From a virus (Duplodnaviria; Heunggongvirae; Uroviricota; Caudoviricetes): a stretch of 64,000 nucleotides of DNA. The notes below the pieces were generated by a model, which saw only the letters and a program-made list of their open reading frames with translations, did no database searches and was not told the origin of the DNA. The DNA is taken from the IMG/VR virus record IMGVR_UViG_2645727901_000008; one strand, given 5' to 3'. Shown piece by piece: positions 4,487 through 63,360 of this stretch. A program made the translations under genes and the position numbers. How positions within the stretch are numbered: position 1 is the stretch's first letter; each line of letters begins with the position of its first letter.

Positions 4487-7400
4487 TTAATCCTCAAGCA
4501 GAGCATCCAGCGACGGGTCATTAATAGTTGTGCTAGCACGTGGTCGCGGTTGCGGCTGCGATGTTTTGACAACCTTATCCGGATCGCCTTTTGTATTGTT
4601 CTTGTTCACATTCAGAAGATCGTTCAGGATAGAGCAGATGTTATCCAGCGCCTTCAACATAGCAGGATCGTTATTTATAGTGTCAGTAGTTAATGGTTGT
4701 CTTATTCCGCTTCGTGCGAGATCTGTTACAGTAGGAAGCTGTGGTGGCAAAGCAAGAAAAGGTTCTTGCACGGCTGACGCAGAGCCAAATATGGCATTAT
4801 TGGCTTCGTTTGATATACCTCTAATGCTATCTGCGGTTTGTTGAATACCATTATTCAGCCAACTACCGGCGCTCTTGGTAAGCGGGCTAATAGCCCTGGC
4901 AATTGTTGAGTTCTGCCCAGTAGCCTGATAAACCAAATCATTAACAATACCTGTGCCATCTACCCCACCAATAAGTTGTGAAACGTTATCGCCAATTGCA
5001 GGTAACACAGCAGAGCTAATACGTTTCAGACCTGTTAATGACGAGTCAAACAAAGAGCCAAGCACCCCCTTATCTTCACCATCAATTACCTTGTATCCAT
5101 TGTCATAAACTGGAATCCCCCTTGAGTTTACAGAGATTTTTTCACTCTCACTTGCCGAAGAAACACCGGAGAGAAGATCCACTGAAGGCATATCGCGTTC
5201 AGCTTTTGGTCTTTTTTGTAAAGCGTCTCTTATATCAGTTACCTGGCTTGCTTTTTGAAATCCAAAAGATTTACCGGTTAAGCTGGATATCTTTTCAGTA
5301 AGAGCCTGATCCATTCCTTTCGCTTTTTCGGAAAGCGAAGATATGGAACCAAACGAAGTCGCCGACGCAAAATCCTTAATCAGGCCAAGGTTTGTACCAG
5401 CAAGGCTGGTAGCCGCACCTCCAAATAAATTACCTACCCCGCTGTCATTTATAGCGATTAATCTCTCAAGCAGACTTGATGGCGAGCCAGTATTAACATC
5501 AACAATCTCTGGATTAATCGGTTGCGATTGATTGCCTGTTTTTTGTGGCTTTTTGACTGCCTGGGCATGTTGTGCAACCTCAATTGGCTGTTGTGTTGCT
5601 GTCGGAACGGCATTCAAAACTGGTTGAGCTGGAGATTTTCCATTAGCATATTTTACCTTGCGACCAACACTATATTGCGAATCGCGGGCAATTAGCTGAC
5701 CACCATTTTCTTTCTGAATTTTATTAATCCGCGCCAATGTTTCGTCAGAGAATTGTCCCTCCCATCGACCAGTGTTAGTGTTAAATGCTCCAAGTGCATT
5801 CTTAATGAACTCATTATTAACTGCCGGATTTCCGCCTTCTTTCGTCGCAATTGCACGAACTAATTGCGTCATAACCTCTGGGTTGCTGACATCTATTTTT
5901 TCATTAGGCGATACACCAAGATATTTACTGACGTTATCAATATATTGGTTAGTATTGTTCTCATTTGGCGGTGCCCATTTTGAAATGATGCTGGATACCG
6001 TCTGTAACTTCTGATATCCCGCTGCAGCACTGGTGCCGTTGTAATAGCTGGAAACCTGGTTTGCCAGTGCCCTGATCCCTTCTTCAGGTGTGTTAAATCG
6101 CGCAAAACGTTGTTCACCCTTTGCATTTGGCGATTCCAGCGTCGCCCCTTCCTGGTTGGCAAAAACAAGATTACCGAGATTATTATTTCGGTAATTGCGG
6201 TTTTTAGCGTTGCTGCCGCCAATATTCAGATCCGCTGCAATGGTGTTGTTGGCAGGTGCACTAAATTCAGTTGGAGAAGTATACCCGTGCTCACCAACTC
6301 CATCCTCGCCATTACGCCCACCTTGTAATTGTTCACCTAGAGAATGAATCGCATCGACAGTTTTTTTGGTGCCGTCTTCAACAGCTTTTTTTACTTGTTT
6401 CGTGTTTTCGTCAGTGGATAAAAATGTATCCTTAAGGCTACCAAAAACAGATTTGGTGATATCTACCGCGCCGTTAACACCACGAGCAATATCTCCGGTA
6501 TCAAAATTCTGAAGTTTTTCACCTGCTCTTTCAAATCCTAGCGCAGAAATTCCTTTCCCTATCAAGTTCGTTGCGCCCGACACCAAGCCACCCATATCGA
6601 GCACATTAGCTGTTGCGTAAGCCGTTTTTTGCTGTTCGGATACAGCATCATCGTCACTTAAACCAAAGGCTGCCTTTTGCGCCTCTGTATCTGTGTAACC
6701 ATCTATGGCGTCATATCCAGCCATTGCCAGCGAACCGATGATAGGGACCGCTCTTGCCGCTGTGGATGCTGCTGATTTAACACCTATTTTTGCTGCACTT
6801 TTGAGGGCTACAGATTCAGTTTTTTTCTTTGCAATGACTTCGCCGGTTTTAATGGTGGCATCTTCAGCCACAACACCAGCTGACTTCACGGCCTTAGCAG
6901 TATTTTTTGTTTCCTTTGCAATCCCCTTTGATGTATCGCTGATAGTGCTTACATCTTTGGGTTTGCTGATCTTATTTTTAACTACTTTTGCTGCTCCGAC
7001 ACCAGTGCCAGCCGCAGCGCTACCGGCAGCAACTTTTTCGCCAGCGGAGAGTGCTTTTTTCCCAAGATTGCGGCCTTTCCTTTTCGATTTGTTCCGTTTA
7101 TTTTTTCCCGTCTGATCACCAATATTGATTTTATTTCTTCTGCTTGCTCGATTTTTCCAGAGATCACTTAAGCCGAACTTATTTCCAGAAGACACTGATT
7201 TCCGAAGCTTAACTATCTCGTCAGAAACATTTTCCAGACCATCAATTATTTTGTTGTCATTGGTCTGAAGGATTTTGGTTTGCTCTTCTACTGCTTGTGC
7301 GGATTTTGTCTCAACAGCGTTATTGAATGCTTTTGCAGATGTTGCTTTTTGAGAATTCACCGCCGCCGGATAAGTAATTACTGGTGATATCGCTTTCGAG

Positions 7401-8269
7401 GTTGATGTTTCTTTTTTCCCCTTTTCTACCAATTCTTTAAGAGATTCTGCTTTACCTGTGATCTCTTTAGTTATGTCGTACATGCCACGAGCCGCCATCC
7501 ATAACGGCCCACCAGCACCGACACCAGCTGCATTTGTTAAAGACTCTTCACTGGAAGACTGATTGCCATCTACCCCCATAATGGAACCTAGCTTTCTGAG
7601 AAAGCCAGCTTGTAATTTTGCGTCGGCTTTACGTGCGTTCTGCAATTCTTTTTTTCTGGCTACATCCTCATTGCTTTTTTGGGATACAAAACGTCCATTA
7701 CTATCCCGCAGCGGGCCTTTTAGACTTTGGGGGGATTGTGGTTCAAGAGGGGCTGAATTAGCAGCTACCGGTATAAAACCGTCCGATTTTCGGATGGTCT
7801 GACGTGATTGCACGGAGCGAACACTTTCTTGTGTGTTCGTTGCAACGATAGAGCGGTCCACGGTTTGGTTTATCGGTGCCCTTTCCTTTTTAGCAGGGAG
7901 ACGTTTTTTATATGGGTTAGTTTGGACATCTCTAACGCTATCAGATGTACTTTGCTCGTAGTCTTTACGCCTGCGTGATAGTCTGTTGCTAACTCTGCCT
8001 TGCCTTTCGTCCTGTTGAGTTATGGTGCTTGCCCCAGAAAGAATGGCGTCTTTTACCTCAGCAAGAGCTTTAAGTTCGTTTGTGCTCGCCTCCTGAATAG
8101 CGTCAATTATTGCGATACGGTTTTTATTCTCTTTCAAAATAACCTCTCTTTTACCAGCGCGATCAACGTTTCCCGGCTTGAGCTTTGTATTTTTCTTCCA
8201 GGGCTTTTGACATATGGAGTGCTCGCCATTGCGGTAATTGTTCAACGTCGCTAACGGGCTGATATCCAT
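4487..8269 (-). CDS. Large virion protein, tape-measure-like / P1 Sit-like with a putative peptidoglycan-hydrolase segment
   Basis: 1260-aa ORF, Lys/Ala/Gly-rich low-complexity central region, segment 'FARFNTPEEGIRALANQVSSYY...KWAPPNENNTNQYIDNV' resembling cell-wall hydrolase domains of virion proteins; position between baseplate genes and replicon. Confidence 0.6.
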   Translation of the reverse strand: MDISPLATLNNYRNGEHSICQKPWKKNTKLKPGNVDRAGKREVILKENKNRIAIIDAIQEASTNELKALAEVKDAILSGASTITQQDERQGRVSNRLSRRRKDYEQSTSDSVRDVQTNPYKKRLPAKKERAPINQTVDRSIVATNTQESVRSVQSRQTIRKSDGFIPVAANSAPLEPQSPQSLKGPLRDSNGRFVSQKSNEDVARKKELQNARKADAKLQAGFLRKLGSIMGVDGNQSSSEESLTNAAGVGAGGPLWMAARGMYDITKEITGKAESLKELVEKGKKETSTSKAISPVITYPAAVNSQKATSAKAFNNAVETKSAQAVEEQTKILQTNDNKIIDGLENVSDEIVKLRKSVSSGNKFGLSDLWKNRASRRNKINIGDQTGKNKRNKSKRKGRNLGKKALSAGEKVAAGSAAAGTGVGAAKVVKNKISKPKDVSTISDTSKGIAKETKNTAKAVKSAGVVAEDATIKTGEVIAKKKTESVALKSAAKIGVKSAASTAARAVPIIGSLAMAGYDAIDGYTDTEAQKAAFGLSDDDAVSEQQKTAYATANVLDMGGLVSGATNLIGKGISALGFERAGEKLQNFDTGDIARGVNGAVDITKSVFGSLKDTFLSTDENTKQVKKAVEDGTKKTVDAIHSLGEQLQGGRNGEDGVGEHGYTSPTEFSAPANNTIAADLNIGGSNAKNRNYRNNNLGNLVFANQEGATLESPNAKGEQRFARFNTPEEGIRALANQVSSYYNGTSAAAGYQKLQTVSSIISKWAPPNENNTNQYIDNVSKYLGVSPNEKIDVSNPEVMTQLVRAIATKEGGNPAVNNEFIKNALGAFNTNTGRWEGQFSDETLARINKIQKENGGQLIARDSQYSVGRKVKYANGKSPAQPVLNAVPTATQQPIEVAQHAQAVKKPQKTGNQSQPINPEIVDVNTGSPSSLLERLIAINDSGVGNLFGGAATSLAGTNLGLIKDFASATSFGSISSLSEKAKGMDQALTEKISSLTGKSFGFQKASQVTDIRDALQKRPKAERDMPSVDLLSGVSSASESEKISVNSRGIPVYDNGYKVIDGEDKGVLGSLFDSSLTGLKRISSAVLPAIGDNVSQLIGGVDGTGIVNDLVYQATGQNSTIARAISPLTKSAGSWLNNGIQQTADSIRGISNEANNAIFGSASAVQEPFLALPPQLPTVTDLARSGIRQPLTTDTINNDPAMLKALDNICSILNDLLNVNKNNTKGDPDKVVKTSQPQPRPRASTTINDPSLDALLED

Positions 8270-23418: not shown

Positions 23419-23442
23419 AAAAGCCCCAGGCGGGGCTTTTTC
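23419..23442 (+). terminator. Rho-independent terminator (gccccaggcggggc + TTTTT)
   Basis: Hairpin flanked by A-tract and T-tract after the parA operon. Confidence 0.7.
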
Positions 23443-24350
23443 TATTTGAGCGTTGCAATGATATCGTTAGCGACTATTCGCGTGGATGCTTTGCATGACA
23501 CGGACCGTCTGGCTGGCATGTGGTACAGCTTAAAACCGTTTCTTTCGTACAATTCGCGAATTTTTGGCGCGCCACTGTTTGTTATTACTATCTTTGCACC
23601 GCGCTGGTGGGCCGCCACCAACAGTGATACAAGCCGTTTTTGTTCATCGAAAAGGAAGCTATTTCCTGAATAGCTGGTAAATCCCTCTGTATCTGGCAGC
23701 GGCTCATACGGCGGGTCACAAAAAATCACATCGTCTTTACCAGCCGCCTCGATGACACCAGCAAAGTCACCTGATACAAAGGAAGTGTTTTTGAGTACGT
23801 CATCAGCCAAAAATGCCTTCATCTCTGCATGTGGGAAGTAGGGCGCTTTGTATTTGCCATACCCCACGTTGAACTCGCCATTTTGGTTGTACCGCGTTAC
23901 GCCATTAAAACAGTGACGATTAAGGTACAAAAATGCGGCAGCATGATGTAGTTGGTCATACTTTCCTCTGTTAAATGCCTCACGCACTTCGAGGTAAGCG
24001 TCAGCGTTGTTGTAATTTTTGAAAAAACTATATGACAGCGTGACGAGCGAATGTCCTTCTCGCTGCAATGTCTGATAGAAGTTAATCAGGTCACCGTTAA
24101 TATCATTAAGCAGGTTGTGGCGAAATCCTGCATTCGTAAATACGGAACCGCCACCAACGAATGGTTCTATTAACCGCTTACCGTGTGGTAGATGCTCAAG
24201 CACTGTAGGCAATTCTGAGAATTTACCACCTACCCATTTGAATATCGGACGCTCATATTCATCCGGAGTCCGAATGGTGCGCATATAGCTAATTTCAGCC
24301 ATCGTATCCTGTTTTTCTATGGCTATGCTTGCTATAGATTTACTCATAGA
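23442..24350 (-). CDS. dam: Dam-like N6-adenine DNA methyltransferase
   Basis: FKWVGGK and DPPY motifs; likely start MSKSIASIA near 24350 (track ORF 23442..24443 overlaps the upstream MTase). Confidence 0.8.
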   Translation of the reverse strand, partial: SMSKSIASIAIEKQDTMAEISYMRTIRTPDEYERPIFKWVGGKFSELPTVLEHLPHGKRLIEPFVGGGSVFTNAGFRHNLLNDINGDLINFYQTLQREGHSLVTLSYSFFKNYNNADAYLEVREAFNRGKYDQLHHAAAFLYLNRHCFNGVTRYNQNGEFNVGYGKYKAPYFPHAEMKAFLADDVLKNTSFVSGDFAGVIEAAGKDDVIFCDPPYEPLPDTEGFTSYSGNSFLFDEQKRLVSLLVAAHQRGAKIVITNSGAPKIRELYERNGFKLYHMPARRSVSCKASTRIVANDIIATLK

Positions 24351-25018
24351 GCACCCCCTTATTCGCTTCGAAAACTGCCTTTGCGAATCCATGTGGAGTA
24401 GCACTTCGAAAATTAGCCCTGTCAGGCCCTGGTGGCGCGGCATGGATTCTGTTATCTGGCTTGCCTAATGATTCGTCCATTAGGGCATCAGGCATGACAA
24501 AGCCCTGGCCGCTCCAGAGGCATGTTTTTTTTGTGTAGTTATCTTCCTGACAATATGCAGTGAAGAAGTAAGGGTGAAAGATGTGATCTGGCTTACGCCA
24601 GAATGTCGATATTTTGCTGACCGGATTTTCAATCATGTACGGACAACCGATCATCTTTGCAATGTCATAACACTGCCAGACAACCTGCATTGCTTTGAAC
24701 TGGAAAACCGGATCTTTATTAGCCTTGTCCGAAAACCAGCGCGCGCCGGAAACAGCCAGGTCAGTACACGGTGGGAACCCGGCCAGAAACACGATGCGCT
24801 GCAAATTCTTACGGAGAAAAGCGTATACTTCATCGCTATCGATGATCGCACTAATACGCGTCAGAACGGCACCTGATTGCATCCGCTCGTCACTGGTCGA
24901 TAAGTGCTGTGGATCGACGATAGCGGCATCGACACCGTATTCCAGCCAGGGGGCAACCATTGCCCCCGTAAAATCACAAAGACTCACAACAAGCTGTCGG
25001 TTATTATCGTTCTGCTTC
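24340..25018 (-). CDS. dcm: C5-cytosine DNA methyltransferase (Dcm-like)
   Basis: Motif I ([16 protein letters not shown]), PC motif (FPPCTDLA), ENP motif (MIENP); probable GTG start near 25018. Confidence 0.7.
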
Positions 25019-30031: not shown

Positions 30032-30769
30032 ATGGGCAAAAATTCATCAACAGAAAACACATCTACAATTGACTCAATCAAGGGCACAATGGATGAAGCC
30101 ATAAAAGATAAATTATTTAATAAATTATTTGCATATGTGGTGGTTTCATTTTTTGTCGTTAATTGGCAAGAAATACTAATTTTGTTTAAATCTAAATATG
30201 ATATATACACAACACTGTCTATAGTATGGGTAGGGGATAAATATCAAATCCCTTATTTTGGAACCTTCATTGTATCTCCGTTTTTAGCTCACTTTGTGAT
30301 GCCGTTTATATATGGCACTATTGCGTCCATAGTGATGCCTTATATTACTATGCGTATATCAAAACTCACTGGTAGAAATTATGCGCAAATAAGATACATT
30401 GACCATGAATTTGACTCAGAAGAGAAAGCAAGAGTAAAGGCGTTGCTGAGAAACCTAAAGAAAAAAGAGGAAGAGCTTTTAAAATTAGAGGAACAAATAG
30501 AAGGTCAACAAAAAATACTGAATACAATCGAAGAAAAGAAGAGAGAGATTGAGAGTGCCAGAGTGGCTCTGTATCACGGTATAAAAGTAATTGTTGATAT
30601 ATATAAAGCAAAAGATAAAAGGATTTCCACCAAAGAAGATTTTGCCGATTTATTAAAAGCAATTGAAGAAAGTGATTTTTATAAAGACACTGGGTTGTGG
30701 GGTATTAATAAATTAATAGATGACGTGGAGACAATATATGAGTCTCAATCGACATCAAAGGACAAGTAA
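30032..30769 (+). CDS. Membrane protein with C-terminal coiled-coil (candidate abortive-infection/exclusion protein)
   Basis: AT-rich gene; hydrophobic helices followed by a Lys/Glu-rich coiled-coil; ATG at 30032. Confidence 0.55.
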   Translation: MGKNSSTENTSTIDSIKGTMDEAIKDKLFNKLFAYVVVSFFVVNWQEILILFKSKYDIYTTLSIVWVGDKYQIPYFGTFIVSPFLAHFVMPFIYGTIASIVMPYITMRISKLTGRNYAQIRYIDHEFDSEEKARVKALLRNLKKKEEELLKLEEQIEGQQKILNTIEEKKREIESARVALYHGIKVIVDIYKAKDKRISTKEDFADLLKAIEESDFYKDTGLWGINKLIDDVETIYESQSTSKDK

Positions 30770-30802
30770 TATAAAAGGCGGGATAACCGCCTTTGTTGTA
30801 AA

Positions 30803-31999
30803 TTAAGAACCTTTCTTCACATACTCCATGAACATTTTTTCAGCTTGTGCAGGTGGTGTTCCTGCCATGACCAGCGCATCAATGAACGCCTGCTTCTTCA
30901 GTGCGAACTGATCGGCCAGGCGTTGCTGAAGCTCCTTGTTTTTCTGTTTCTCACGTTGCAACGCCGCTTCTTTTGCTGCCGCCCGTTTTTTCTGTGCGTC
31001 TGACAACTTTCTGGCCTTGGTCAGTTGGTCACGTAGCTTGTCAATCTTGCCGTTGTCCTTTGCCAGTTTTGTGCTTAAAGCGGCCTGGCGCTTCTGATAG
31101 AGCCTCCATTCGCGCTTGGCAGCGTCAACGTTTGTTTTACTGTTGCGATTGCGATTAAACTCCCTCTCGTCTTCTTTTGAGAAGTGTTTGGTTGTACGGC
31201 GGCGATCGTCACCAAATGCAATTTGCGTTGCGGCCTTTTGTAACGCACGAGCAATACTCATTTGCCAACTAGCGGACTGTAACCGCGTCATTGAGTGGAT
31301 CACGTGTTTACAGGCGACGCCTTGTAGCTTAGGGTTACGAACTTTTGGATAGGCGTATTCTTTTGGCGGGGCCAGGGCAAAGTTACCCGCAGTAGCGATG
31401 TAACGATACCAGTATTGATGACGACCACAGTCACAATCGAAAGACACCCGCCCGGCGCACAGTGATTTAGTGATTTTCAGAGCTGATTTATCGTCTTCTG
31501 CGATGTCATCGACCATCTGATCCCATTCTTCAAAGCGTATCCGGACGATATGGTGCTGGTGGACGGATATATCCGATGCTTCTACGCGGATATGAATCAC
31601 GTTGTGGCGAAGAGATACGGGTGTAGCTCTTTTGATACCAGATCCGTCATCCACGGCGTTATTTGCACGCTTAATATCGATTGCCTGGCTGGATGCCACC
31701 AGCTGGGCGTATGTGATGCCAGCCGTCTTGCTGTCATATTTTTCGCGTGTTTTACTCCGTAGCTTTTCGAAACCTTTCAGGTCGTCTCGCGTGAAGAACG
31801 TGCCGCCTTTTTTCTTCCCTAACTTGAGAATATCTTCGGCGGATTTGTTCCTCAGTCTACCTGGCGTCAGCGTCCGGTGAGCTTGTCGGCGCTTACGGGT
31901 TTGTTCTTTCCTGATAAGGTCGAATAAACGCGTGAAGTCCTTAGAGGACAGGCCGTCAGTGATATAGCGCCCGTCCTGGTTTTTCAGGAAATCAGGCAT
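30803..31999 (-). CDS. SWIM-type zinc-finger protein with basic coiled-coil C-terminus
   Basis: CxC-N29-CxH pattern (FDCDCGRHQ...ACKHVIH); highly basic C-terminal region. Confidence 0.5.
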   Translation of the reverse strand: MPDFLKNQDGRYITDGLSSKDFTRLFDLIRKEQTRKRRQAHRTLTPGRLRNKSAEDILKLGKKKGGTFFTRDDLKGFEKLRSKTREKYDSKTAGITYAQLVASSQAIDIKRANNAVDDGSGIKRATPVSLRHNVIHIRVEASDISVHQHHIVRIRFEEWDQMVDDIAEDDKSALKITKSLCAGRVSFDCDCGRHQYWYRYIATAGNFALAPPKEYAYPKVRNPKLQGVACKHVIHSMTRLQSASWQMSIARALQKAATQIAFGDDRRRTTKHFSKEDEREFNRNRNSKTNVDAAKREWRLYQKRQAALSTKLAKDNGKIDKLRDQLTKARKLSDAQKKRAAAKEAALQREKQKNKELQQRLADQFALKKQAFIDALVMAGTPPAQAEKMFMEYVKKGS

Positions 32000-55418: not shown

Positions 55419-55454
55419 TCTAACTTTAAATAATGCCAATTATCTAAAGTTAGA
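55419..55454. other. lox-like recombination site: 13/14-bp inverted arms around an 8-bp spacer (CTAACTTTAAATA-ATGCCAAT-TATCTAAAGTTAG)
   Basis: Same architecture as loxP with shared arm positions (TAACTT...ATA) and spacer starting ATG; about 150 bp upstream of cre. Confidence 0.7.
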
Positions 55455-55653: not shown

Positions 55654-56691
55654 ATGAGTAAGAAGTCGATCGAGAAAGAGTACAAACGGTTCCTGCAAAC
55701 CGCTGAACGGTGGAAAGAGCTGGTGGTCGCAAACTCTGTTTTCCATGATACCAGTTATGCCGGCGAGGAATTCCGCCACGTTGCACTAACACATGATCAG
55801 AATGTACTAGAAGAAGCTGAAAAGTGCCTCACAGAATGGAAAGCCTTTGTTGACTTGTGCCGTAACGCTGACGGCAAAGCGTCCAACATTGTTGAGTCTG
55901 TATATTCTCCGATCCCATTCATTATTGAGGACACAAATCAAAGCACGCATATTGTTGTGCAAAGCGCGACCACCACCCGCTCATTTACGCGCGAAAATCT
56001 GCTCAAAAAATATGATGCAATTATAAAGAAAAGCCTGAAAAACAAGATATTTTCGCAGATTGTTGGTGCACTTGAAGAAGAGCGCCGTTTTTTCGCATCA
56101 GAACCTGAAGGGGAAGTTTACCGGGCGCGCAAAGATGGATACACAGATGTAGTGCTTACAACAAACATTGAAGGCAGCAATGCTCTGTCACGATTCAGGG
56201 TAGGCGCACACGGAGCCTTAGTGTTCGCAAAACTTCCGAACACCACAGTGCCCGTTGTTAATAATGTCGGCGAACGTCGCAGCATTACTATTTATTCTGG
56301 GGTTGAGTCGATACCTTGCGGCCTGCTTGGTGACTTTAGCCTCTATCGCGTTCGCGATCTGGAGAAACACCAACCAAGCTATGTTGCGAAGTCATATATC
56401 TTGCGAAACATCGACATCCGCAATGAGAGCTTAAAGAACAAATCAGCCAAAATGCTTGAGGAAGCCGATCCGGCTATTCGCCATATCATTGAGCGTAAAA
56501 TACAGACAGCACGCGAAGCGATGGCGAGACTGAATAAAATGGATCTGGAGTTGTTAGACGTAATGATGACATCCGGAGATGACCTGACAGGCATAAAACT
56601 GACAGACGCGCGGAAAAGATACGGTAAAACCATAGAAGAACGTTACGGGTTCACTTTCTCCCAAACACAGCACGCCGCTAAACTCTGGTAA
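55654..56691 (+). CDS. Hypothetical protein adjacent to lox (candidate regulator)
   Basis: 345-aa ORF with RBS; no recognisable motif. Confidence 0.55.
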   Translation: MSKKSIEKEYKRFLQTAERWKELVVANSVFHDTSYAGEEFRHVALTHDQNVLEEAEKCLTEWKAFVDLCRNADGKASNIVESVYSPIPFIIEDTNQSTHIVVQSATTTRSFTRENLLKKYDAIIKKSLKNKIFSQIVGALEEERRFFASEPEGEVYRARKDGYTDVVLTTNIEGSNALSRFRVGAHGALVFAKLPNTTVPVVNNVGERRSITIYSGVESIPCGLLGDFSLYRVRDLEKHQPSYVAKSYILRNIDIRNESLKNKSAKMLEEADPAIRHIIERKIQTAREAMARLNKMDLELLDVMMTSGDDLTGIKLTDARKRYGKTIEERYGFTFSQTQHAAKLW

Positions 56692-56696
56692 TCACA

Positions 56697-56725
56697 AGCC
56701 CCGCATTGCCGGGGCTTTATATATC
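56697..56725 (+). terminator. Terminator hairpin (agccccgcattgccggggct + TTATATAT)
   Basis: Between convergent 55654..56691 and pacB. Confidence 0.6.
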
Positions 56726-58225
56726 CAGATCTGGCATTTCCACATCTGCAAGAACCTGATCGCGGAAGGTAGCCATTTCAGCGCCGATATCTTCATTAGC
56801 AGGAACATAGTCCACCAGCATTGTAAAGCAGTAGGTATCCCATCGGTCAGGTGATTTGATGTTCAGCTTTTGCCGCATGTGCTCCTTGCGCATCATCGCC
56901 ATCTTCCCTTCTTCATTAAGTAAAAAGGGGATTTTTGACGCTTGCTCTGCCGTTTTAGGGTCACTGTCTATTCGCATACGACCTGACTTTATGGCATCAC
57001 GAGCCATAATATTTGCGTAGGCACGTTGGTTAACAAAACGCTCCTTGTCTTTGTTCGAAAACATGGGTTTCCCCCACCGAATACGTACCGGATTAGCCCC
57101 ACGGCGCACCAGCTGCGCACAGGTATCTGAACCAAAACCGTCTGCGTCAACCGCGATTGTAATATTCGGGTATTTATCCGGCGTGCATTCGTTGTATATA
57201 AAGTCAGCAAAAGCCAGCGGGTCCATAGTCCCTGGCATTTCCATTATCTTAAAGTTAACAACGCGCCGCTTATTCCTGTGACCTGACACCTTGCAGATGT
57301 TAAGGACCGACTTGTCTCGCCCGTTCCCAACGTCAGCTGTCGCTACCCACCCCCAATTTTTCTCCAACAACACCTTGCGCCGCGCAGCGCGATCGCATTC
57401 ATCACGACCAAGCAAATAGCCGTTAATCTCCCGAGGGAACTGACCAAGCACCTTAACCATATACTCAATAGAATCGCGCCCGCCATATTCCAGGAGTTTC
57501 TGCCTGATGAATTGTGGTGTGACGAACGGTGATTCTTCTGAGTTAAGAACAATTGCTGTCCAGATCCCTTTCGGGTTGTCTGGGGTTTTAGCTTGAGAAT
57601 GGTGCGAATCGTAGAAATAACCACTTGGCCTTGTTGGCTGGGATAGCATCAACATTCGGTTATCTTCTTCAGTAAGAGCACCGGTCATTACGCCGATCGC
57701 CTTATCAGATATACCAGATGCTTCATCCAGAATTAGAAGCAAATGTGCCGCGTGTTCCCCCGCCAGCGCTTCTTCGTTGCCGAGTCGATAACCTTTGCAG
57801 AGAACTTCCCAAATCCCCTTACGGGAGCGCTCATAAAACATGGTGTCAGAGAGGACAAAATAGGTCTGCAACCACCCATGACGCTTAACTGCATTCGCCC
57901 AATACTGTTTAACGTATTTGAATACGCCTGTTTTTACCTGGCCTATCTTGTTAGCAACAATGATGACACGGGCATCGGGGAACAGGATCATAAAAATCAA
58001 CAGCAACATCGCGGTAAGGGACGACTTCCCCGTTCCGTGTCCGGACGTGACGGTAGTCCTACTCCCCGTTTCCTGCACTGACTGAATGATCTGCTGCTGC
58101 TGGTGGGAGGGGAACATCCCAAAAATATCGACAACAGCCTGGGTAAAGTTGTAGCGGTATTTGATTACCATATCGCGCCAGCGTGGATCGCTGGTGACGC
58201 ATTTAATCTTGCGCCCGCCAGCCAT
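56717..58225 (-). CDS. pacB: Terminase large subunit (PacB-like)
   Basis: 502 aa, Walker A-like GHGTGKS, downstream of and overlapping the PacA-like gene. Confidence 0.75.
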   Translation of the reverse strand: MAGGRKIKCVTSDPRWRDMVIKYRYNFTQAVVDIFGMFPSHQQQQIIQSVQETGSRTTVTSGHGTGKSSLTAMLLLIFMILFPDARVIIVANKIGQVKTGVFKYVKQYWANAVKRHGWLQTYFVLSDTMFYERSRKGIWEVLCKGYRLGNEEALAGEHAAHLLLILDEASGISDKAIGVMTGALTEEDNRMLMLSQPTRPSGYFYDSHHSQAKTPDNPKGIWTAIVLNSEESPFVTPQFIRQKLLEYGGRDSIEYMVKVLGQFPREINGYLLGRDECDRAARRKVLLEKNWGWVATADVGNGRDKSVLNICKVSGHRNKRRVVNFKIMEMPGTMDPLAFADFIYNECTPDKYPNITIAVDADGFGSDTCAQLVRRGANPVRIRWGKPMFSNKDKERFVNQRAYANIMARDAIKSGRMRIDSDPKTAEQASKIPFLLNEEGKMAMMRKEHMRQKLNIKSPDRWDTYCFTMLVDYVPANEDIGAEMATFRDQVLADVEMPDLDI

Positions 58226-59589
58226 TAATCATCCTCCGGCGGTTCTATCGCGATATCATCATCTCCGGCGTCATACCCTGCATCAGATACATCATAATCA
58301 CCGTAAATTTCAGCCGTTGCCGAAGGGTCAATATCCAGCTCTTCGTCGTTGGCCTCGAATTCTCCAGCTTTACGCTCGCCATTGCGGTCGTAATCTCCGC
58401 ACCCCAATTCTTCAACAATGGTTGCCACATCCGCCCGGCGCTCTGCCAGCCATTGCGGATGGTTAGCCTGAAGCGTTGCAAACTCCCTTGCCTCTTTGTC
58501 CAGCTGTTCATCATCAACATCATTGACGTCAGAAACAGGTGGTTCGAGAAGAGTGATAGCTTTCGCCGCGCGCGCCGCGAGGATAGCCGGGACGCTGACC
58601 CCCTGGCGCTCGATGTATTCAGCAACACCGATATCATCCAGTTCCTCGCGCTCACGCATACGTATAGCGGCGGCGATAACTCTGGCTGCGCGTGCGTCAG
58701 CGCCAATGCGATATTCAATCTCTTTGCCACGCTGTTCGGCCTGTAGGCGTGCTAATTCGAGTTTTTCTCTGGCCTCAGCCTCTTTGAATGCTTGCTGGCG
58801 AGCGCTCTGACGAAGCTTTTCATCCCCCTGTCGCAGCTTTTGTTCGGACTGATATATAGCTGCCAACCTACTGATAAAATCATTCATGTAGTAGGCCGCG
58901 TCACTGATTAGACCGAGAAGACGCTGCCCAGGGTGCATTCCTTCTGGCTCTTTATCGCCCAAGGCGTCTATTTCCGCCTGTAGGCGTTCGGCCTCCTGAT
59001 CAACAATGCTTTGATACTGAAGTGCGCGCTCTTGCGCCATTTGAATTGCTAACCGCAGGTGTTCTTCTGCGCCGTTCTTCATCATATCGCGAGCCACATT
59101 CGTAGTGGGCAATGTGGCACGCTGCACAGCACCGTCAGGGATCATTGCAGAAGATCCCTCAATTTTTGGGGCGCTTTTATCTTCTTCGGGGATCATTTTC
59201 GCCATTTTTTCGCGCAATGATCTCCTGACAGATTCTTTTATCTCATTGTTATTATTTGCATTATTTTCATGATCCGAAGTTTTCTTTCTCGGCATACTTC
59301 GGAAAGAACCTGCGCCCTGCGAATTGTCAATTTCTGTAAATTTTGTTTTTTCTGCACCCTCTTCCAGCTTTTTTGTTGCTCTTCCCGCCCGTTTTTTTTC
59401 AGGTGATTTGGTGCTTTTTTTTGTTGTCTTTACCTGCGACCGCACCTCATTTTTTTTCATATTGAGATGCTTTCTGGCTGTATTGAAGCTAAGGCCATGC
59501 TCCTCACAGTATTCCTTTACAGTGATCCCTTTTTCTTCACGCAACGCTATAAAGCGGGCGCGGTGCTCCTCCCAATTAACCAGACTCAT
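58225..59589 (-). CDS. pacA: Terminase small/pac-recognition subunit (PacA-like)
   Basis: 454 aa, N-terminal HTH-like region, charged coiled-coil middle, acidic C-terminus; contains a GATC cluster. Confidence 0.7.
   Translation of the reverse strand: MSLVNWEEHRARFIALREEKGITVKEYCEEHGLSFNTARKHLNMKKNEVRSQVKTTKKSTKSPEKKRAGRATKKLEEGAEKTKFTEIDNSQGAGSFRSMPRKKTSDHENNANNNNEIKESVRRSLREKMAKMIPEEDKSAPKIEGSSAMIPDGAVQRATLPTTNVARDMMKNGAEEHLRLAIQMAQERALQYQSIVDQEAERLQAEIDALGDKEPEGMHPGQRLLGLISDAAYYMNDFISRLAAIYQSEQKLRQGDEKLRQSARQQAFKEAEAREKLELARLQAEQRGKEIEYRIGADARAARVIAAAIRMREREELDDIGVAEYIERQGVSVPAILAARAAKAITLLEPPVSDVNDVDDEQLDKEAREFATLQANHPQWLAERRADVATIVEELGCGDYDRNGERKAGEFEANDEELDIDPSATAEIYGDYDVSDAGYDAGDDDIAIEPPEDD
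59139..59275. other. Candidate pac site: cluster of five GATC-containing hexamers inside pacA
   Basis: GATC at 59140, 59153, 59191, 59219, 59271 within about 135 bp; P1 pac is a Dam-methylated hexamer cluster inside pacA. Confidence 0.35.
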
Positions 59590-59978
59590 AAAGCAACACC
59601 ACGCTTTTTAACGGCGGCATTCCACAGCTTATTCGCCATGTCCACCAGCTCTCGTTGCTCTTTTCGCGCCTGTTCGACTGATTTCCTGCTACAGTTTTTA
59701 ACCAGTAAGCTACCGTATTCAGGCGTGCGCCCGCGCACCTTGAACTGATATCCGTTCAGACCATGTAGCCAATATTTTCGTGGATACACACGATCATCCA
59801 GCTCACAGATTGCCCTGCTTGAACGAACAAAATGACGAATGATGTTAGTTACACTTACTCGTGAAACATGGAGATGAGGGTATTTTTCTTTGGCGAGAGT
59901 GGTAATTTCAGTGACTGTCAGATAGCAGTCAGCCCTGATCATGATATCCGCAATTTCTGCGCTGCTGATTTGTTCCAT
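59586..59978 (-). CDS. Small protein upstream of pacA (Lpa-like position)
   Basis: 130-aa ORF overlapping pacA start; operator-like motif upstream; product from position only. Confidence 0.35.
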   Translation of the reverse strand: MEQISSAEIADIMIRADCYLTVTEITTLAKEKYPHLHVSRVSVTNIIRHFVRSSRAICELDDRVYPRKYWLHGLNGYQFKVRGRTPEYGSLLVKNCSRKSVEQARKEQRELVDMANKLWNAAVKKRGVAL

Positions 59979-60479: not shown

Positions 60480-61054
60480 CAGAAAGCCTCCCAGTCAGTC
60501 GCGATAATATCCACACCAGTTGCAAACCAGTCTGTCTGCGCCTGTAAATCACCATTCATCATTACCAGGCGAGGCATCACCATCACATCGCACCCTTCCA
60601 CAATATCGAATGCCTCTTCCGGCAAGAATTCGAAGAGCTTTTCTTTGCTGCCAATGCTGCCACGGAACATCGATATATAGCTCCCTTTAGGCCATGATGT
60701 CCGCCGGGCATCAAGCCCTTTCATCATCCAGTAAAAAGCCGAGGAAAAAGGGATATTCTTTTTGCCAATGATTACATTATTCGCTTCTGTGTACTTCAGG
60801 AACTTAACTAACCTTACCATTGACTCGGATAACGCAACGTATGGCTCATGATTGATTGCTGACACGCTTACACCGTGCAATCCAACGCTTACCACTGTCA
60901 TATCGCCGCTTTGTGCGGTTTCGATATTGACGCCTTTGCGAACTAATGAGGCGTAAAGTTCCTCTCGCTTTTGGGTCCAGCGTTCACGCTTCCCTATGAA
61001 GTCACTCAAAATGAGATCTTCTTCTGCATATGCGTTATCGTTCGCCATTAACAT
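60479..61054 (-). CDS. Protein with C-terminal DUF2829-like domain (second copy)
   Basis: FSSAFYWMMKGLDARRTSWPKGSYISM...VDIIATDWEAF parallels the DUF2829-like region of 52167..52844. Confidence 0.45.
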   Translation of the reverse strand: MLMANDNAYAEEDLILSDFIGKRERWTQKREELYASLVRKGVNIETAQSGDMTVVSVGLHGVSVSAINHEPYVALSESMVRLVKFLKYTEANNVIIGKKNIPFSSAFYWMMKGLDARRTSWPKGSYISMFRGSIGSKEKLFEFLPEEAFDIVEGCDVMVMPRLVMMNGDLQAQTDWFATGVDIIATDWEAF

Positions 61055-61508: not shown

Positions 61509-61584
61509 TGGTGGCCCCTACCGGACTTGAACCGGTGACCGTGCGATTATGAGTCGCCAGCTCTAACCACTGAGCTAAAGGGCC
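61509..61584 (-). tRNA. tRNA with CAU anticodon (tRNA-Ile2-like; Met not excluded)
   Basis: Minus-strand GGCCCTTTAGCTCAGTGGTTAGAGC...CTCATAA...GGTTCAAGTCC...GGGGCCACCA; close to E. coli ileX as recalled; CCA encoded. Confidence 0.85.
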
Positions 61585-61594
61585 AATTAGTGTT

Positions 61595-61705
61595 TTATTT
61601 TCGACGCCTGAGATTCTTCGCGACTTGTTCTACGCCGTATACGATCACAAGTAGAAACAGCAAAAACCATCCAGGGTTCTTATCGATATACGTCCAAAAA
61701 TCCAT
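61595..61705 (-). CDS. Possible 36-aa membrane peptide
   Basis: MDFWTYIDKNPGWFLLFLLVIVYGVEQVAKNLRRRK; start overlaps upstream stop (TGATG). Confidence 0.3.
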   Translation of the reverse strand: MDFWTYIDKNPGWFLLFLLVIVYGVEQVAKNLRRRK

Positions 61706-61869
61706 CATGAGTTCCTGAACGCACCTTCAATAATCGGCAATAGCAATACCACAGCTACTGAAACTAATGCCCCATCAGCCAACACCGACATCACTTTGCT
61801 GGTGAAATCCACCAGTACGGACAAAACGAGAAAGCCAATGGCGCCCGCAATACGCGCCTTGCCAATCAT
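61705..61869 (-). CDS. Possible 54-aa membrane peptide
   Basis: MIGKARIAGAIGFLVLSVLVDF...; ATG overlaps the TerB-like stop (TAATG). Confidence 0.35.
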   Translation of the reverse strand: MIGKARIAGAIGFLVLSVLVDFTSKVMSVLADGALVSVAVVLLLPIIEGAFRNS

Positions 61870-62303
61870 TACAGATAATCTTCCACACGAAGGCCAAGAC
61901 GGCGACCAACCTCTTCCAGAACCTTATGCTCCGCAGGTTCGATTTCACCATCTGCTTCAGCGATCGTGAGCATGTTCACGAAGACTTCTTCCGCTTCTTT
62001 GGGATCGTTTTTGATATCTTCAATTTCGCGGAGGATATTCATGCGACCAACACGGAAACCAGCTTCCAGTTGCTCAGTAAAACGGGTGATTGTTGCGGTA
62101 ATTTCGTTGCCAAAATGACTTAAGCGAGGATTAGAGCGGACAAGCTGATCAAGTTTCGCTGTTTCTTCCTTTTCGATTTCACCATCTGCGGCAGACACCA
62201 GCAAACAGCCACCGATGATGGCCTCCATCAGATCGCGATTCTCAACCCTTTTCAGCTCTACTTTTGCTGAAGCGACTTTCTTACCGAAAAATTTACCGAA
62301 CAT
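61869..62303 (-). CDS. TerB-like (tellurite-resistance family) protein
   Basis: Repeated ADGEIE-type motifs (SAADGEIEKEE; AEADGEIEPAE); likely start MFGKFFGKK at 62303. Confidence 0.6.
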   Translation of the reverse strand: MFGKFFGKKVASAKVELKRVENRDLMEAIIGGCLLVSAADGEIEKEETAKLDQLVRSNPRLSHFGNEITATITRFTEQLEAGFRVGRMNILREIEDIKNDPKEAEEVFVNMLTIAEADGEIEPAEHKVLEEVGRRLGLRVEDYL

Positions 62304-62570
62304 TGGTTTTCCCTCAATAAACATGACGTATTTATTAGGTTGCGGTGCCTGGTGCCTCCAGGTGACGTTAACCAGTTAACAATTAACGCCGGGATTTTTG
62401 TCTTCACAATTAAGGAGGATTGTTTTAACTGTTCCGCGTGCGCTTAGCCGCATTCACCGCAATGGTAAGAGCACTTGGCTGGCTGGGCGGCGATGACGCC
62501 TGTACGCATTTGGTGAACCGGTTCTGCTTCCGGCATTCGCTTAATTAGCCAAATACTCTTAACGTTGCAC

Positions 62571-62657
62571 TGGCGGAGAGTAATGGAATCGAACCATCAT
62601 CGCTTGCGCAATGGGACGGTTTTCAAGACCGCTTGAGCACCATGCTCCCTACTCTCC
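62571..62657 (-). tRNA. Class-II tRNA-like gene, anticodon UGA (tRNA-Ser-like), atypical D-arm
   Basis: 7-bp acceptor stem (GGAGAGT/ACTCTCC) + G + CCA, anticodon arm GGTCTTGAAAACCG as in E. coli tRNA-Ser(UGA), T-loop TTCGATT, long variable region. Confidence 0.5.
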
Positions 62658-62793
62658 CGTTATTGTGGCGACCGGTGCTGATCTCCGGCTTGCGGTTATT
62701 TCAGACTCTCACGGGCGTTTAATTGCCCCGCCGAACAGCTCTTTTCCGCAATAGCTGCAATGTCTTTCGCGCATCAGCCTGCGCATTCACCAC

Positions 62794-62881
62794 AATGTTG
62801 AGAACACTGGTTGTCACGCTGCAACGCAACATTTATTCGTAGATTGGGATATGACCCCGTTACGCCAGTGTTCTCAACGTT
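62794..62881. repeat. Inverted repeat (aatgttgagaacactgg ... ccagtgttctcaacgtt), 16/17 match, about 55-bp spacer
   Basis: Read directly from sequence. Confidence 0.5.
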
Positions 62882-63030
62882 GTAGTGCCGGTTACGGTTC
62901 CGGCCAGGCCTCTTCCTCAACGGGTTGTTCTCCATACGGACTACCGTTTATTGGTCGTTCCTGCGGTTTATGTTGTGAAGCCAGATGCTTATCTTCTGGT
63001 TGCTTCAAAGAGCTGCACTTCATCACAACG

Positions 63031-63100
63031 GTAAGGGTACTTCGTAGGGATTCGAACCCTCTGCCAAGCACGGCGATCTCCGACGTCGCAAAATACCCTT
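63031..63100 (-). ncRNA. Truncated tRNA-like element flanked by a 10-bp inverted repeat
   Basis: Canonical T-arm (GGGTTCGAATCCC) and acceptor-like stem, D-arm-like hairpin, no anticodon arm of normal length; ggtaagggta/tacccttacc terminal inverted repeat. Confidence 0.3.
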
Positions 63101-63111
63101 ACCTGTTGCGT

Positions 63112-63187
63112 TGGTGCCGATTAACGGGATCGAACCGCTGACCATTCGCTTACAAAGCGACTGCTCTACCAACTGAGCTAAACCGGC
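63112..63187 (-). tRNA. tRNA-Thr (anticodon UGU)
   Basis: Minus-strand GCCGGTT-TA-GCTCAGTTGGTAGAGC-...TTTGTAA...GGTTCGATCC...AATCGGC-A-CCA cloverleaf. Confidence 0.85.
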
Positions 63188-63191
63188 AATT

Positions 63192-63278
63192 TGGTGGGGA
63201 GTGATGGAGTCGAACCACCCGAGTCGCAATGACAGTAGATTTACAGTCTACCCCGCTACCCCTACGGACTAACTCCCC
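63192..63278 (-). tRNA. tRNA-Tyr-like (anticodon GUA, class II)
   Basis: Acceptor GGGGAGT/ACTCCCC + A + CCA; anticodon arm TAGACTGTAAATCTACTGTCAT nearly identical to E. coli tRNA-Tyr; D-arm irregular. Confidence 0.6.
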
Positions 63279-63283
63279 TAAAG

Positions 63284-63360
63284 TGGCGATGGTGGGTGGA
63301 TTCGAACCACCGACCGACAGCTTAGAAGGCTGCTGCTCTATCCTACTGAGCTACACCATC
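63284..63360 (-). tRNA. tRNA-Arg (anticodon UCU)
   Basis: GATGGTG-TA-GCTC-AGTAGGATA-GAGC-A-GCAGC-CTTCTAA-GCTGT-CGGTC-GGTGG-TTCGAAT-CCACC-CACCATC-G-CCA. Confidence 0.85.

What the first reader, a model, noticed from the sequence alone, without database searches (positions are those of the whole stretch)
59139..59275. GATC-hexamer cluster inside pacA as candidate pac site
Five GATC tetramers occur within about 135 bp inside the PacA-like gene, far denser than expected by chance. In P1 the pac site lies inside pacA as clustered Dam-methylatable hexamers. The hexamers here are not all the P1 TGATCA/G form.
Basis: partly seen in the sequence, partly recalled or inferred. Interest (0 to 1): 0.4.

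Follow-up and report, generated by a model that had tools for sequence, protein, structure and literature searches.

The report
Candidate packaging (pac) site of a D6-like phage
A conserved cluster of five methylatable GATC motifs inside the small-terminase gene of a phage D6-like plasmid prophage is most likely where the phage starts cutting and packaging its DNA; it resembles the classic phage P1 pac site but uses a different repeat sequence and layout.

Summary
Five GATC lie at window 59140-59274, inside pacA (58225-59589, minus strand) of a plasmid prophage whose pacB-pacA-lpa block is 96.7% identical to Escherichia phage D6.

In this sequence alone the cluster is only suggestive: it is the densest in the window, but the window-wide scan gives P about 0.17. 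The comparative evidence is decisive.
- In 32 distinct D6-clade pacA sequences (70-100% nt identity), all five GATC sit at the same gene positions. The only exceptions are two sequences that each lack one site.
- They lie in the least conserved part of the gene (permutation P about 2e-5).
- Codon third positions inside the GATC are fixed, and Arg/Gly replacements preserve the GATC.
- All 15 PacA lineages examined, including P1 with its mapped pac, have a GATC-hexamer cluster in pacA nt 140-480.

The D6 clade differs from P1 in four ways:
- the repeat is asymmetric TGATCC (extended AATGATCCC), not TGATCA/G;
- there is one compact 135-bp group with mixed orientations, and no left hexamer block;
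- there is no good IHF site;
- there is no nucleotide similarity to P1 pac.

The element also encodes a Dam-family methylase, and rox lies 3.8 kb downstream. My verdict is a probable pac site, a variant of the P1 type. It has not been proven experimentally.

The parts
59139..59275 (-). Whole candidate pac region: five GATC-containing repeats, at gene nt 315-451 of pacA.
   Evidence: densest GATC cluster in the window; all five conserved in 32 distinct D6-clade sequences; P about 2e-5.
59268..59276 (+). Repeat 1 (gene nt 316): CATGATCCG, TGATCC hexamer on the + strand. It encodes Asp-His.
   Evidence: GAT(Asp) codon invariant in 32/32 sequences; GGATCA invariant.
59223..59270 (.). 48-bp spacer between repeats 1 and 2, 75% A+T. 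It is the largest gap in the cluster and a candidate cleavage/bending region (inferred).
   Evidence: AT content 0.75 against 0.50 for the gene. Weak IHF-like 13-mer TAACAATGAGATA at 59239-59251 (2 mismatches to WATCAANNNNTTR; 10/13 identical to the annotated P1 IHF site). 9-nt x2.2 tandem repeat at 59251-59270. A contig break in one IMG genome falls at 59261-59270.
59216..59224 (+). Repeat 2 (gene nt 368): AATGATCTC on the + strand (TGATCT here, TGATCC in the 70-75% lineages).
   Evidence: The codon varies AGA(Arg)/GGA(Gly) but keeps GA. Lost (GACC) only in L031.
59189..59197 (-). Repeat 3 (gene nt 396): AATGATCCC on the - strand. It encodes Met-Ile-Pro.
   Evidence: exact 9-mer. ATC(Ile) in 31/32 sequences while the adjacent Pro third position varies freely. 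Lost (GACC) only in L049.
59152..59157 (+). Repeat 4 (gene nt 434): AGATCC here and in D6; TGATCC/TGATCT in the 70-75% lineages.
   Evidence: GGA(Gly)/AGA(Arg) replacement keeps GATC; GATC invariant in 32/32.
59138..59146 (-). Repeat 5 (gene nt 447): AATGATCCC on the - strand. It encodes Met-Ile-Pro and forms a 12-nt direct repeat with repeat 3 at a spacing of 51.
   Evidence: D1; AATGATCCCT invariant in the clade.
59521..59529 (+). Outlying AGTGATCCC (gene nt 63) in the HTH-coding part of pacA. It is conserved in the D6 clade, and whether it belongs to pac is uncertain.
   Evidence: It overlaps the conserved Gly-Ile-Thr codons, so protein constraint may explain it. It is absent in the E. hormaechei lineage.
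58225..59589 (-). pacA, the small terminase / pacase A subunit. It has an N-terminal HTH, a variable Lys/Asn-rich linker that hosts the repeats, and a conserved C-terminal part.
56717..58225 (-). pacB, the large terminase / pacase B subunit. Its start overlaps the pacA stop.
   Evidence: Terminase_6N, below the Pfam cut-off; phrog_2 terminase large subunit, E 2.6e-40.
55421..55452 (.). rox-type recombination site (Dre target), 3.8 kb downstream of the cluster in the direction of pacA transcription. This parallels lox about 4 kb from P1 pac.
   Evidence: 1 mismatch to the D6 rox sequence as I recalled it; 0 expected by chance; rox annotated at the corresponding place in D6.
23442..24464 (-). 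Phage-encoded Dam-family (D12 class) N6-adenine DNA methyltransferase, a possible supplier of GATC methylation.
   Evidence: Pfam PF02086 E 1.6e-55. The best solved relatives are E. coli Dam (2g1p, E 4e-58) and DpnM. Its specificity for GATC is inferred, not shown.

Best explanation
The cluster is the packaging-initiation (pac) site of a D6-like, P1-family phage-plasmid. It is embedded in the variable linker-coding part of the phage's own small-terminase gene. Five repeats with a GATC core are the recognition elements for the PacA-PacB pacase, most plausibly through PacA's N-terminal helix-turn-helix. Their consensus is TGATCC, extended to AATGATCCC. They occur in both orientations: in window + strand terms, going from 59275 down to 59139, the order is +,+,-,+,-. 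By analogy with P1, adenine methylation of the GATC cores gates cleavage. Methylation would come from host Dam and/or the phage's own Dam-family enzyme at 23442-24464. Fully methylated sites would be cut and newly replicated hemimethylated ones bound but spared, so a concatemer is opened once and then packaged by headfuls. The cut is probably made within or next to the repeats, and the 75% A+T spacer at 59223-59270 is the best candidate. Packaging would then run toward pacB, c1 and rox (decreasing window coordinates), which puts rox in the terminal redundancy for Dre-mediated circularisation. SHOWN: the sites exist, they are conserved at the DNA level, the feature recurs in all PacA lineages including the one with a mapped pac, and a Dam-like gene and a downstream rox are present. 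INFERRED: binding by PacA, methylation dependence, cut position and packaging direction.
For: (1) Identity and context. The pacB-pacA-lpa block is 96.7% identical to phage D6. PacA is homologous to P1 PacA over its full length. The synteny is lpa-pacA-pacB-c1-rox.

(2) Conservation. In 32 distinct D6-clade pacA sequences at 70-100% nt identity, the five GATC are at identical positions. Only one sequence lacks site 368 and one lacks site 396. In the linker (nt 151-480) only 34-37% of columns are invariant and only 11% of 4-mers are conserved. The chance that five random 4-mers are all conserved is about 2e-5.

(3) The constraint acts on DNA, not protein. Third-codon positions inside GATC are fixed, whereas only 27% of amino-acid-invariant degenerate codons in the gene are invariant. 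The neighbouring Pro third position varies freely. Arg/Gly replacements at codons starting at nt 367 and nt 433 preserve the GA of GATC.

(4) Controls. GATC sites in the flanking 7.3 kb are retained only 46-52% of the time in the 75-80% lineages, against 5/5 in the cluster. The next-best GATC cluster in the remaining D6 genome loses 4 of 5 sites in the 75% lineages.

(5) Recurrence. All 15 PacA lineages examined have 4-9 TGATCN hexamers in pacA nt 140-480, at 11.7-26.4 per kb against a background of 2.6-4.9 per kb. They include P1, where cleavage is mapped between the hexamer blocks. P1 pac features are taken from PMC10028697.

(6) Motif. AATGATCCC occurs exactly 3 times in 64 kb, and 2 of those are in the cluster. 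A third cluster repeat has one mismatch. TGATCC makes up 3/5 of the cluster sites against 12% of other GATC sites in the window (binomial P 0.016). In the E. marmotae lineage it is 5/5.

(7) A Dam-family methylase is encoded by the element.
Against: - There are no experimental data on D6-type virion ends or cleavage. Neither D6 GenBank record annotates a pac site.
- None of the five repeats is a P1 hexamer (TGATCA/G).
- The D6 clade lacks the left block of 3-7 closely spaced hexamers that most other lineages carry at nt 145-255, so the cluster might be only part of the site.
- No IHF consensus with one mismatch or fewer was found, although the same scan recovers the P1 IHF site.
- There is no nucleotide similarity to P1 pac beyond 8-mers.
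- In this single sequence the clustering is not significant window-wide (P 0.17).
- Natural variants lacking one site exist (L031, L049). Either single sites are dispensable or those prophages are impaired.
Confidence: 0.72

Rival explanations
1. The conserved GATC cluster is a Dam/SeqA-responsive regulatory element that is not the cleavage site. It might couple pacA-pacB expression or an internal or antisense promoter to replication or methylation state, while pac itself lies elsewhere or packaging is not strictly site-specific.
For: Clusters of GATC are used for methylation-sensitive regulation elsewhere in P1, for example the Dam sites annotated in the cre regulatory region. The D6 clade lacks the left hexamer block and a good IHF site. 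Nothing here shows cleavage.
Against: No sigma-70-like promoter is predicted in or beside the cluster on either strand. The same feature in P1 is the mapped pac. It co-localises with pacA in all 15 lineages, although the linker sequence is otherwise unalignable. No comparable conserved cluster exists in the 64-kb window or in the other 27.6 kb of D6.
Confidence: 0.13
2. The conservation reflects protein constraint. The repeats encode short peptide motifs (Met-Ile-Pro twice, Gly/Arg-Ser twice, Asp-His) needed in the PacA linker, and the GATC are a by-product.
For: Met-Ile-Pro and Asp-His are conserved as amino acids across the clade. ATG-ATC-CC is the only way to get GATC from Met-Ile-Pro, so some DNA conservation follows from the peptide.
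Against: At two sites the amino acid changes (Arg/Gly) while GATC is kept. Ile is always ATC and Asp always GAT, although ATT/ATA and GAC are available and neighbouring synonymous positions vary. In other lineages the encoded peptides differ (Asp-His and Asp-Gln repeats) but the hexamers persist. The E. hormaechei lineage has gained, lost and moved sites while keeping the cluster.
Confidence: 0.08
3. Chance cluster with no function.
For: The window-wide scan statistic for five GATC in 135 bp is P 0.17. GATC is not enriched overall.
Against: Positional conservation gives P about 2e-5. 5/5 sites are retained against about 50% background. The feature recurs in 15/15 lineages. A non-conserved control cluster is described.
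Confidence: 0.02
4. Replication-origin-like element. P1 oriR uses clustered GATC repeats that must be methylated for initiation (stated from my own knowledge).
For: Five GATC lie in a short A+T-rich stretch.
Against: There is no DnaA box (one mismatch or fewer) within 900 bp of the cluster; the nearest is at 60507. There are no iterons, only a 9-nt x2.2 repeat. The cluster lies inside a terminase gene. repL and the lytic origin are annotated elsewhere in D6.
Confidence: 0.02

Closest known systems
Bacteriophage P1 pac site (about 161-162 bp inside pacA; HEX4 and HEX3 blocks of TGATCA/G; IHF site; Dam-regulated cleavage by PacA/PacB)
   Same: It lies inside the homologous gene, in the linker after the N-terminal HTH: gene nt 316-450 here against 195-353 in P1. 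It consists of multiple hexamers with a GATC (Dam) core and has a similar overall size (135 against about 160 bp). The neighbouring genes are the same (lpa upstream; pacB, c1 and a lox-type site about 4 kb downstream). The phage encodes its own Dam-type methylase; P1 has Dmt (own knowledge). Sources.
   Different: The repeat is TGATCC/T (extended AATGATCCC), which is asymmetric and present in both orientations, rather than the palindromic TGATCA or TGATCG. There are five repeats in one group with spacings of 52, 28, 38 and 13 bp, rather than 4 + 3 separated by about 96 bp. There is no IHF match with one mismatch or fewer. There is no detectable nucleotide similarity. PacA is only 21% identical. 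Sources.
Predicted pac clusters of other TGATCC-type PacA lineages (Enterobacter hormaechei plasmid p60214CZ_1 = L010, IMG/VR L051/L053, IMG/VR L055/L056)
   Same: Same TGATCC repeat. Same Lys after the conserved Thr-Ala/Gly-Arg (TAR/TGR) triplet in the putative recognition helix. The right-hand block of L010 (nt 380-471) aligns with repeats 2-5 here. Sources.
   Different: Those lineages keep a left block: three repeats 12 bp apart at nt 157-181 in L010, and five at nt 154-238 in L055. The D6 clade has lost it and has repeat 1 at nt 316 instead.
pac sites of other headful phages that lie within the small-terminase gene (P22, SPP1, Sf6)
   Same: The recognition site is embedded in the small-terminase gene and packaging is headful (own knowledge).
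   Different: Those sites are not GATC repeats and are not known to be methylation-gated (own knowledge). This was not tested here.

Membership tests
P1-type pac site | Located inside the pacA (small terminase) coding sequence, downstream of the N-terminal DNA-binding domain | tested here: met
   Cluster at gene nt 316-450 of 1365. P1 hexamers lie at nt 195-353 of 1194.
P1-type pac site | Repeats are hexamers TGATCA or TGATCG containing a Dam site | tested here: not met
   All five have the GATC core, but 0/5 are TGATCA/G. They are TGATCC x3, TGATCT and AGATCC. The clade consensus is TGATCC.
P1-type pac site | Two hexamer blocks (4 + 3) flanking a central cleavage region of about 90 bp | tested here: not met
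   There is a single group with spacings of 52, 28, 38 and 13 bp, and the largest gap is 48 bp. The left block seen in 10 other lineages is absent.
P1-type pac site | IHF binding site next to the cleavage point | tested here: inconclusive
   No match to WATCAANNNNTTR with one mismatch or fewer, although the scan recovers the P1 site. A positionally conserved 2-mismatch site lies at 59239-59251 and is 10/13 identical to the P1 IHF site.
P1-type pac site | Cleaved by PacA + PacB; cleavage requires adenine methylation of the hexamers | not testable with these tools
   Only indirect evidence: pacA/pacB homologues are adjacent and a Dam-family methylase is encoded at 23442-24464.
P1-type pac site | Site-specific recombination site (lox type) a few kb downstream in the packaging direction, so that it falls within the terminal redundancy | tested here: met
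   rox at 55421-55452 is 3.8 kb from the cluster on the pacB/c1 side. In P1 the distance from pac to lox is about 4.0 kb. The packaging direction itself is inferred.
P1-type pac site | Nucleotide similarity to P1 pac | tested here: not met
   blastn with word size 6-7 finds only matches of 8 nt or fewer at ATGATC motifs.
Functional cis-element (any kind) under purifying selection | Sites conserved beyond local background and beyond protein constraint | tested here: met
   P about 2e-5, synonymous and replacement pattern, 5/5 against about 50% retention, negative control cluster.
Dam-dependent plasmid origin (P1 oriR type) | GATC repeats adjacent to DnaA boxes and iterons | tested here: not met
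   No DnaA box within 900 bp of the cluster. No iteron array.

The most novel reading that the evidence does not exclude
The D6 clade uses a re-specified and re-organised pac. Its repeat is an oriented 9-bp element (AATGATCCC) read by a PacA whose recognition helix carries Lys where TGATCA-reading PacA proteins carry Arg. The repeats form one compact, IHF-independent group whose mixed orientations set cleavage position and packaging polarity. If so, D6 PacAB/pac would be orthogonal to P1 PacAB/pac, in the same way that Dre/rox from the same phage is orthogonal to Cre/lox.
Probability: 0.3. Interest if true: 0.55.

Novelty: new variant of a known kind. Interest (0 to 1): 0.4.

Why it matters
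P1 pac is the textbook example of a methylation-gated packaging signal, and it is the basis of P1 phagemid and transduction tools. This analysis shows that the principle (GATC-core repeats written into the terminase's own linker) holds across all 15 PacA lineages examined. It also shows that the repeat sequence has diverged into at least two forms, TGATCA and TGATCC, each with a matching change in the PacA helix-turn-helix.

Two things follow. First, it gives a directly testable system for how a small terminase reads its site and how methylation is sensed. Second, it suggests a packaging signal that may be orthogonal to P1's, for D6-based phagemid delivery in E. coli, Salmonella and Shigella, where D6-like plasmids are common (121 plasmid records).

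For annotation, it supplies a pac feature that both D6 GenBank records lack.

Tried and rejected
- The two papers most likely to discuss a D6 pac site are not held: Sauer and McDermott 2004 (PMC534624) and Gilcrease and Casjens 2018 (PMC5800970). The P1 genome paper (PMC523184) is not held either. Full-text searches found no description of a D6 pac. I therefore cannot exclude that the cluster was already noted in print.
- I looked for physical-end evidence in assemblies. One IMG genome has two contigs that abut inside pacA. An exact look-up of the corresponding truncated protein found nothing. A pattern scan of IMG/VR gave no further interpretable contig ends. This evidence is anecdotal and I did not use it for the verdict.
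- The genome-contig scan returned only 3 relatives. The IMG/VR and plasmid collections supplied the comparative set instead.
- Chance: rejected.
- Known RNA family: rejected, no Rfam hit.
- Promoter: rejected, none predicted in the cluster.
- Origin: rejected.
- An exact IHF consensus at 59004-59016 beside a TGATCA at 58997-59002 looked attractive, but both are lost in the 75% lineages, so they are not part of the element.
- A second GATC/TGATCC cluster in D6 (30486-30834, outside this window) was tested as an alternative pac and rejected because it is not conserved.
- I did not attempt structure prediction of PacA. Only a single sequence could be submitted, and it would not bear on the DNA site.

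Full report
WHAT IS THERE

The finding lies in a block of genes on the minus strand: lpa (59586-59978), pacA (58225-59589) and pacB (56717-58225). These are followed by c1 on the plus strand (55654-56691). The pacB-pacA-lpa block is 96.7% identical in DNA to Escherichia phage D6, and pacA alone is 99.0% identical. D6 is a P1-related plasmid prophage, and its records annotate these genes as pacase A and B subunits. A rox-type site lies at 55421-55452. The window is therefore part of a D6-like phage-plasmid. The plasmid collection holds 121 records with this pacA, mostly from Escherichia, Salmonella and Shigella.

THE OBSERVATION

GATC occurs at 59140, 59153, 59191, 59219 and 59271. That is five sites in 135 bp, at pacA gene nt 447, 434, 396, 368 and 316. 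None of the hexamers is the P1 form TGATCA/G. They are TGATCC (three), TGATCT and AGATCC.

The window as a whole is not GATC-rich: it has 215 sites against 241 expected from shuffles. The pointwise Poisson probability of five or more sites in 135 bp is 1.1e-4. The cluster is the tightest in the window for 3, 4 and 5 sites. However, 17% of random placements of 215 sites contain an equally tight 5-cluster. Taken alone, the sequence is suggestive but not significant.

CONSERVATION

I collected pacA from D6-like plasmids and IMG/VR contigs. This gave 32 distinct D6-clade sequences spanning 70-100% nucleotide identity.
- All five GATC occupy identical positions in all of them. The exceptions are L031, which lacks site 368, and L049, which lacks site 396. 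Both changes are GATC to GACC.
- The sites sit in the least conserved part of the gene. In nt 151-480 only 34-37% of columns are invariant and only 11% of 4-mers are conserved. The probability that five random 4-mers there are all conserved is about 2e-5. In the alignment the conserved islands are centred on the GATC.

The constraint acts on DNA rather than on protein.
- Asp is always GAT and Ile always ATC, whereas only 27% of amino-acid-invariant degenerate codons in the gene are invariant.
- The third position of the Pro codon after ATG-ATC varies among all four bases.
- At two sites the amino acid switches between Arg (AGA) and Gly (GGA) without touching the GATC.

Two controls support this.
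- In the 7.3 kb around pacA, GATC sites are retained only 46-52% of the time in the 75-80% lineages, against 5/5 in the cluster.
- The next-best GATC/TGATCC cluster in the rest of the D6 genome (30486-30834) loses four of five sites at 75% identity.

THE WIDER FAMILY

PacA here is homologous to P1 PacA over its whole length (21% identity, E 7e-10). More distant relatives occur on plasmids of Enterobacter, Citrobacter, Pantoea, Serratia and Xenorhabdus and in IMG/VR.

In all 15 lineages examined, pacA nt 140-480 carries 4-9 hexamers of the form TGATCN, at 11.7-26.4 per kb against 2.6-4.9 per kb in the flanks. In P1 these are the known HEX4 and HEX3 blocks, with the annotated IHF site and cleavage points between them (features as summarised in PMC10028697).

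Two repeat types emerge.
- Palindromic TGATCA: P1, Pantoea, Serratia, Xenorhabdus, Enterobacter kobei, and Citrobacter (2 of its 4 sites).
- Asymmetric TGATCC: the D6 clade, the E. hormaechei lineage, and IMG/VR L055/56.

The TGATCC lineages all have Lys after the conserved Thr-Ala/Gly-Arg triplet in the putative HTH recognition helix. All TGATCA lineages have Arg there. Because the TGATCC lineages form a single clade, this counts as only one evolutionary event and is no more than a lead.

ANATOMY OF THE D6-TYPE CLUSTER

Oriented on TGATCC, the repeats extend to a 9-mer, AATGATCCC.
- That 9-mer occurs exactly three times in 64 kb, and two of those are in the cluster. A third cluster repeat has one mismatch.
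- In the 75% lineages four of the five repeats fit it.
- The repeat finder recovers a 12-nt direct repeat (59135 and 59186, spacing 51) and several GGATCAT/ATGATCC inverted pairs.
- In gene direction the orientations are reverse, reverse, forward, reverse, forward, with spacings of 52, 28, 38 and 13 bp.

Most other lineages have a left block of 3-7 hexamers, about 12 bp apart, at nt 145-255, plus a right block at nt 320-470. The D6 clade lacks the left block. Where the E. hormaechei lineage has three repeats, D6 has a 12-nt deletion and A-rich sequence. The D6 clade has repeat 1 at nt 316 instead.

The largest gap (59223-59270) is 75% A+T. It contains a weak, positionally conserved IHF-like 13-mer at 59239-59251, with two mismatches to the consensus and 10/13 identity to the P1 IHF site. 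No better IHF site exists, although the same scan recovers the P1 site as a positive control. There is no nucleotide similarity to P1 pac beyond 8-mers.

SUPPORTING CONTEXT
- The element encodes a Dam-family methyltransferase at 23442-24464 (Pfam PF02086, E 1.6e-55). Its closest solved relatives are E. coli Dam and DpnM, both GATC enzymes.
- rox is 3.8 kb from the cluster on the pacB side. In P1, lox is about 4.0 kb from pac on the same side.
- From my own knowledge of P1 (Sternberg and colleagues; Lobocka et al. 2004), packaging runs from pac toward lox, so that lox lies in the terminal redundancy. The same geometry would hold here.

ALTERNATIVES
- Chance is excluded by the conservation and recurrence.
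- Pure protein constraint does not fit the codon evidence, or the turnover of sites in the E. hormaechei lineage.
- An origin-like element is not supported: there are no DnaA boxes or iterons nearby.
- No Rfam family matches, and no promoter is predicted in the cluster.
- The live alternative is a methylation-sensitive regulatory element that is not itself the cut site. I cannot exclude this without end-mapping data, and I give it 0.13.

WHAT IS NOT SHOWN

Cleavage, PacA binding, methylation dependence, the cut position and the packaging direction are all inferences from P1. One IMG genome has two contigs that meet, with a 10-nt overlap, at gene nt 320-329 (window 59261-59270), immediately after repeat 1. 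This would fit a physical end, but it is a single case and coincides with a short tandem repeat. Follow-up look-ups found nothing more. I could not read the D6 papers, so prior description cannot be ruled out. Neither D6 GenBank record annotates a pac site.

VERDICT

It works like P1 pac but fails the strict membership tests for repeat sequence, bipartite layout and sequence similarity. I therefore file it as a new variant of a known kind. Interest is moderate at 0.4. A pac site in pacA of a P1 relative is expected. The TGATCC repeat type, the loss of the left block and the possible orthogonality to P1 are the parts worth an experiment.

Noticed in passing
window 23442-24464 (-): A 340-aa ORF encodes a Dam-family (D12 class) N6-adenine DNA methyltransferase. 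Pfam PF02086 gives E 1.6e-55, and the closest solved structures are E. coli Dam and DpnM. It may methylate the phage's own GATC sites.
   Followed up: partly
L054 end and L043 start (IMG genome 2537562191), equivalent to window 59261-59270: Two contigs of one isolate assembly end and start inside pacA with a 10-nt overlap (ATGAAAATAA), immediately after the first GATC repeat. This could reflect a physical DNA end at pac or only an assembly artefact. It is a single case.
   Followed up: partly
window 61509-63360 (-): Five tRNA genes (Met-CAT, Ser-TGA, Thr-TGT, Tyr-GTA, Arg-TCT) cluster downstream of the lpa/pac region.
   Followed up: no
window 59380-59460 (pacA gene nt 130-210): The Lys-rich linker coding region contains several A7-A8 homopolymer runs. 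A roughly 30-nt block around the first run (catctcaatatgaaaaaaaatgaggt) is identical in all D6-clade lineages down to 70% identity. Two plasmid records (L005, L014) carry frameshifts in pacA, probably sequencing errors at such runs.
   Followed up: no
window 59586-59589: The lpa stop overlaps the pacA start (ATGA). The intergenic space that holds the late promoter LPpac in P1 is therefore absent here, and pacA must be transcribed from further upstream or from within lpa.
   Followed up: no
window 58997-59016: An exact IHF consensus (TATCAAAGCATTG, gene strand) lies directly beside a perfect P1-type TGATCA hexamer, 130 bp downstream of the cluster. Both are lost in the 75% lineages, so they are probably not functional.
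   Followed up: yes
D6 genome MF356679 30486-30834 (L098; outside the window): There is a second loose cluster of five GATC (three of them TGATCC within 123 bp) in the hdf/darA-like genes. Four of the five sites are lost in the 75% lineages. It served as a negative control.
   Followed up: yes
PacA residues 36-42 (window about 59464-59484) and homologues: In the putative recognition helix the residue after the conserved Thr-Ala-Arg triplet (Thr-Gly-Arg in L055, Thr-Cys-Arg in E. kobei) is Lys in all TGATCC-type lineages and Arg in all TGATCA-type lineages. The groups are phylogenetically nested, so this represents one event only.
   Followed up: partly
window 4582-4723: The second-densest GATC cluster in the window (four sites in 142 bp) lies in the 3' end of a 1260-aa ORF (4487-8269, minus strand). 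Its conservation was not examined.
   Followed up: no
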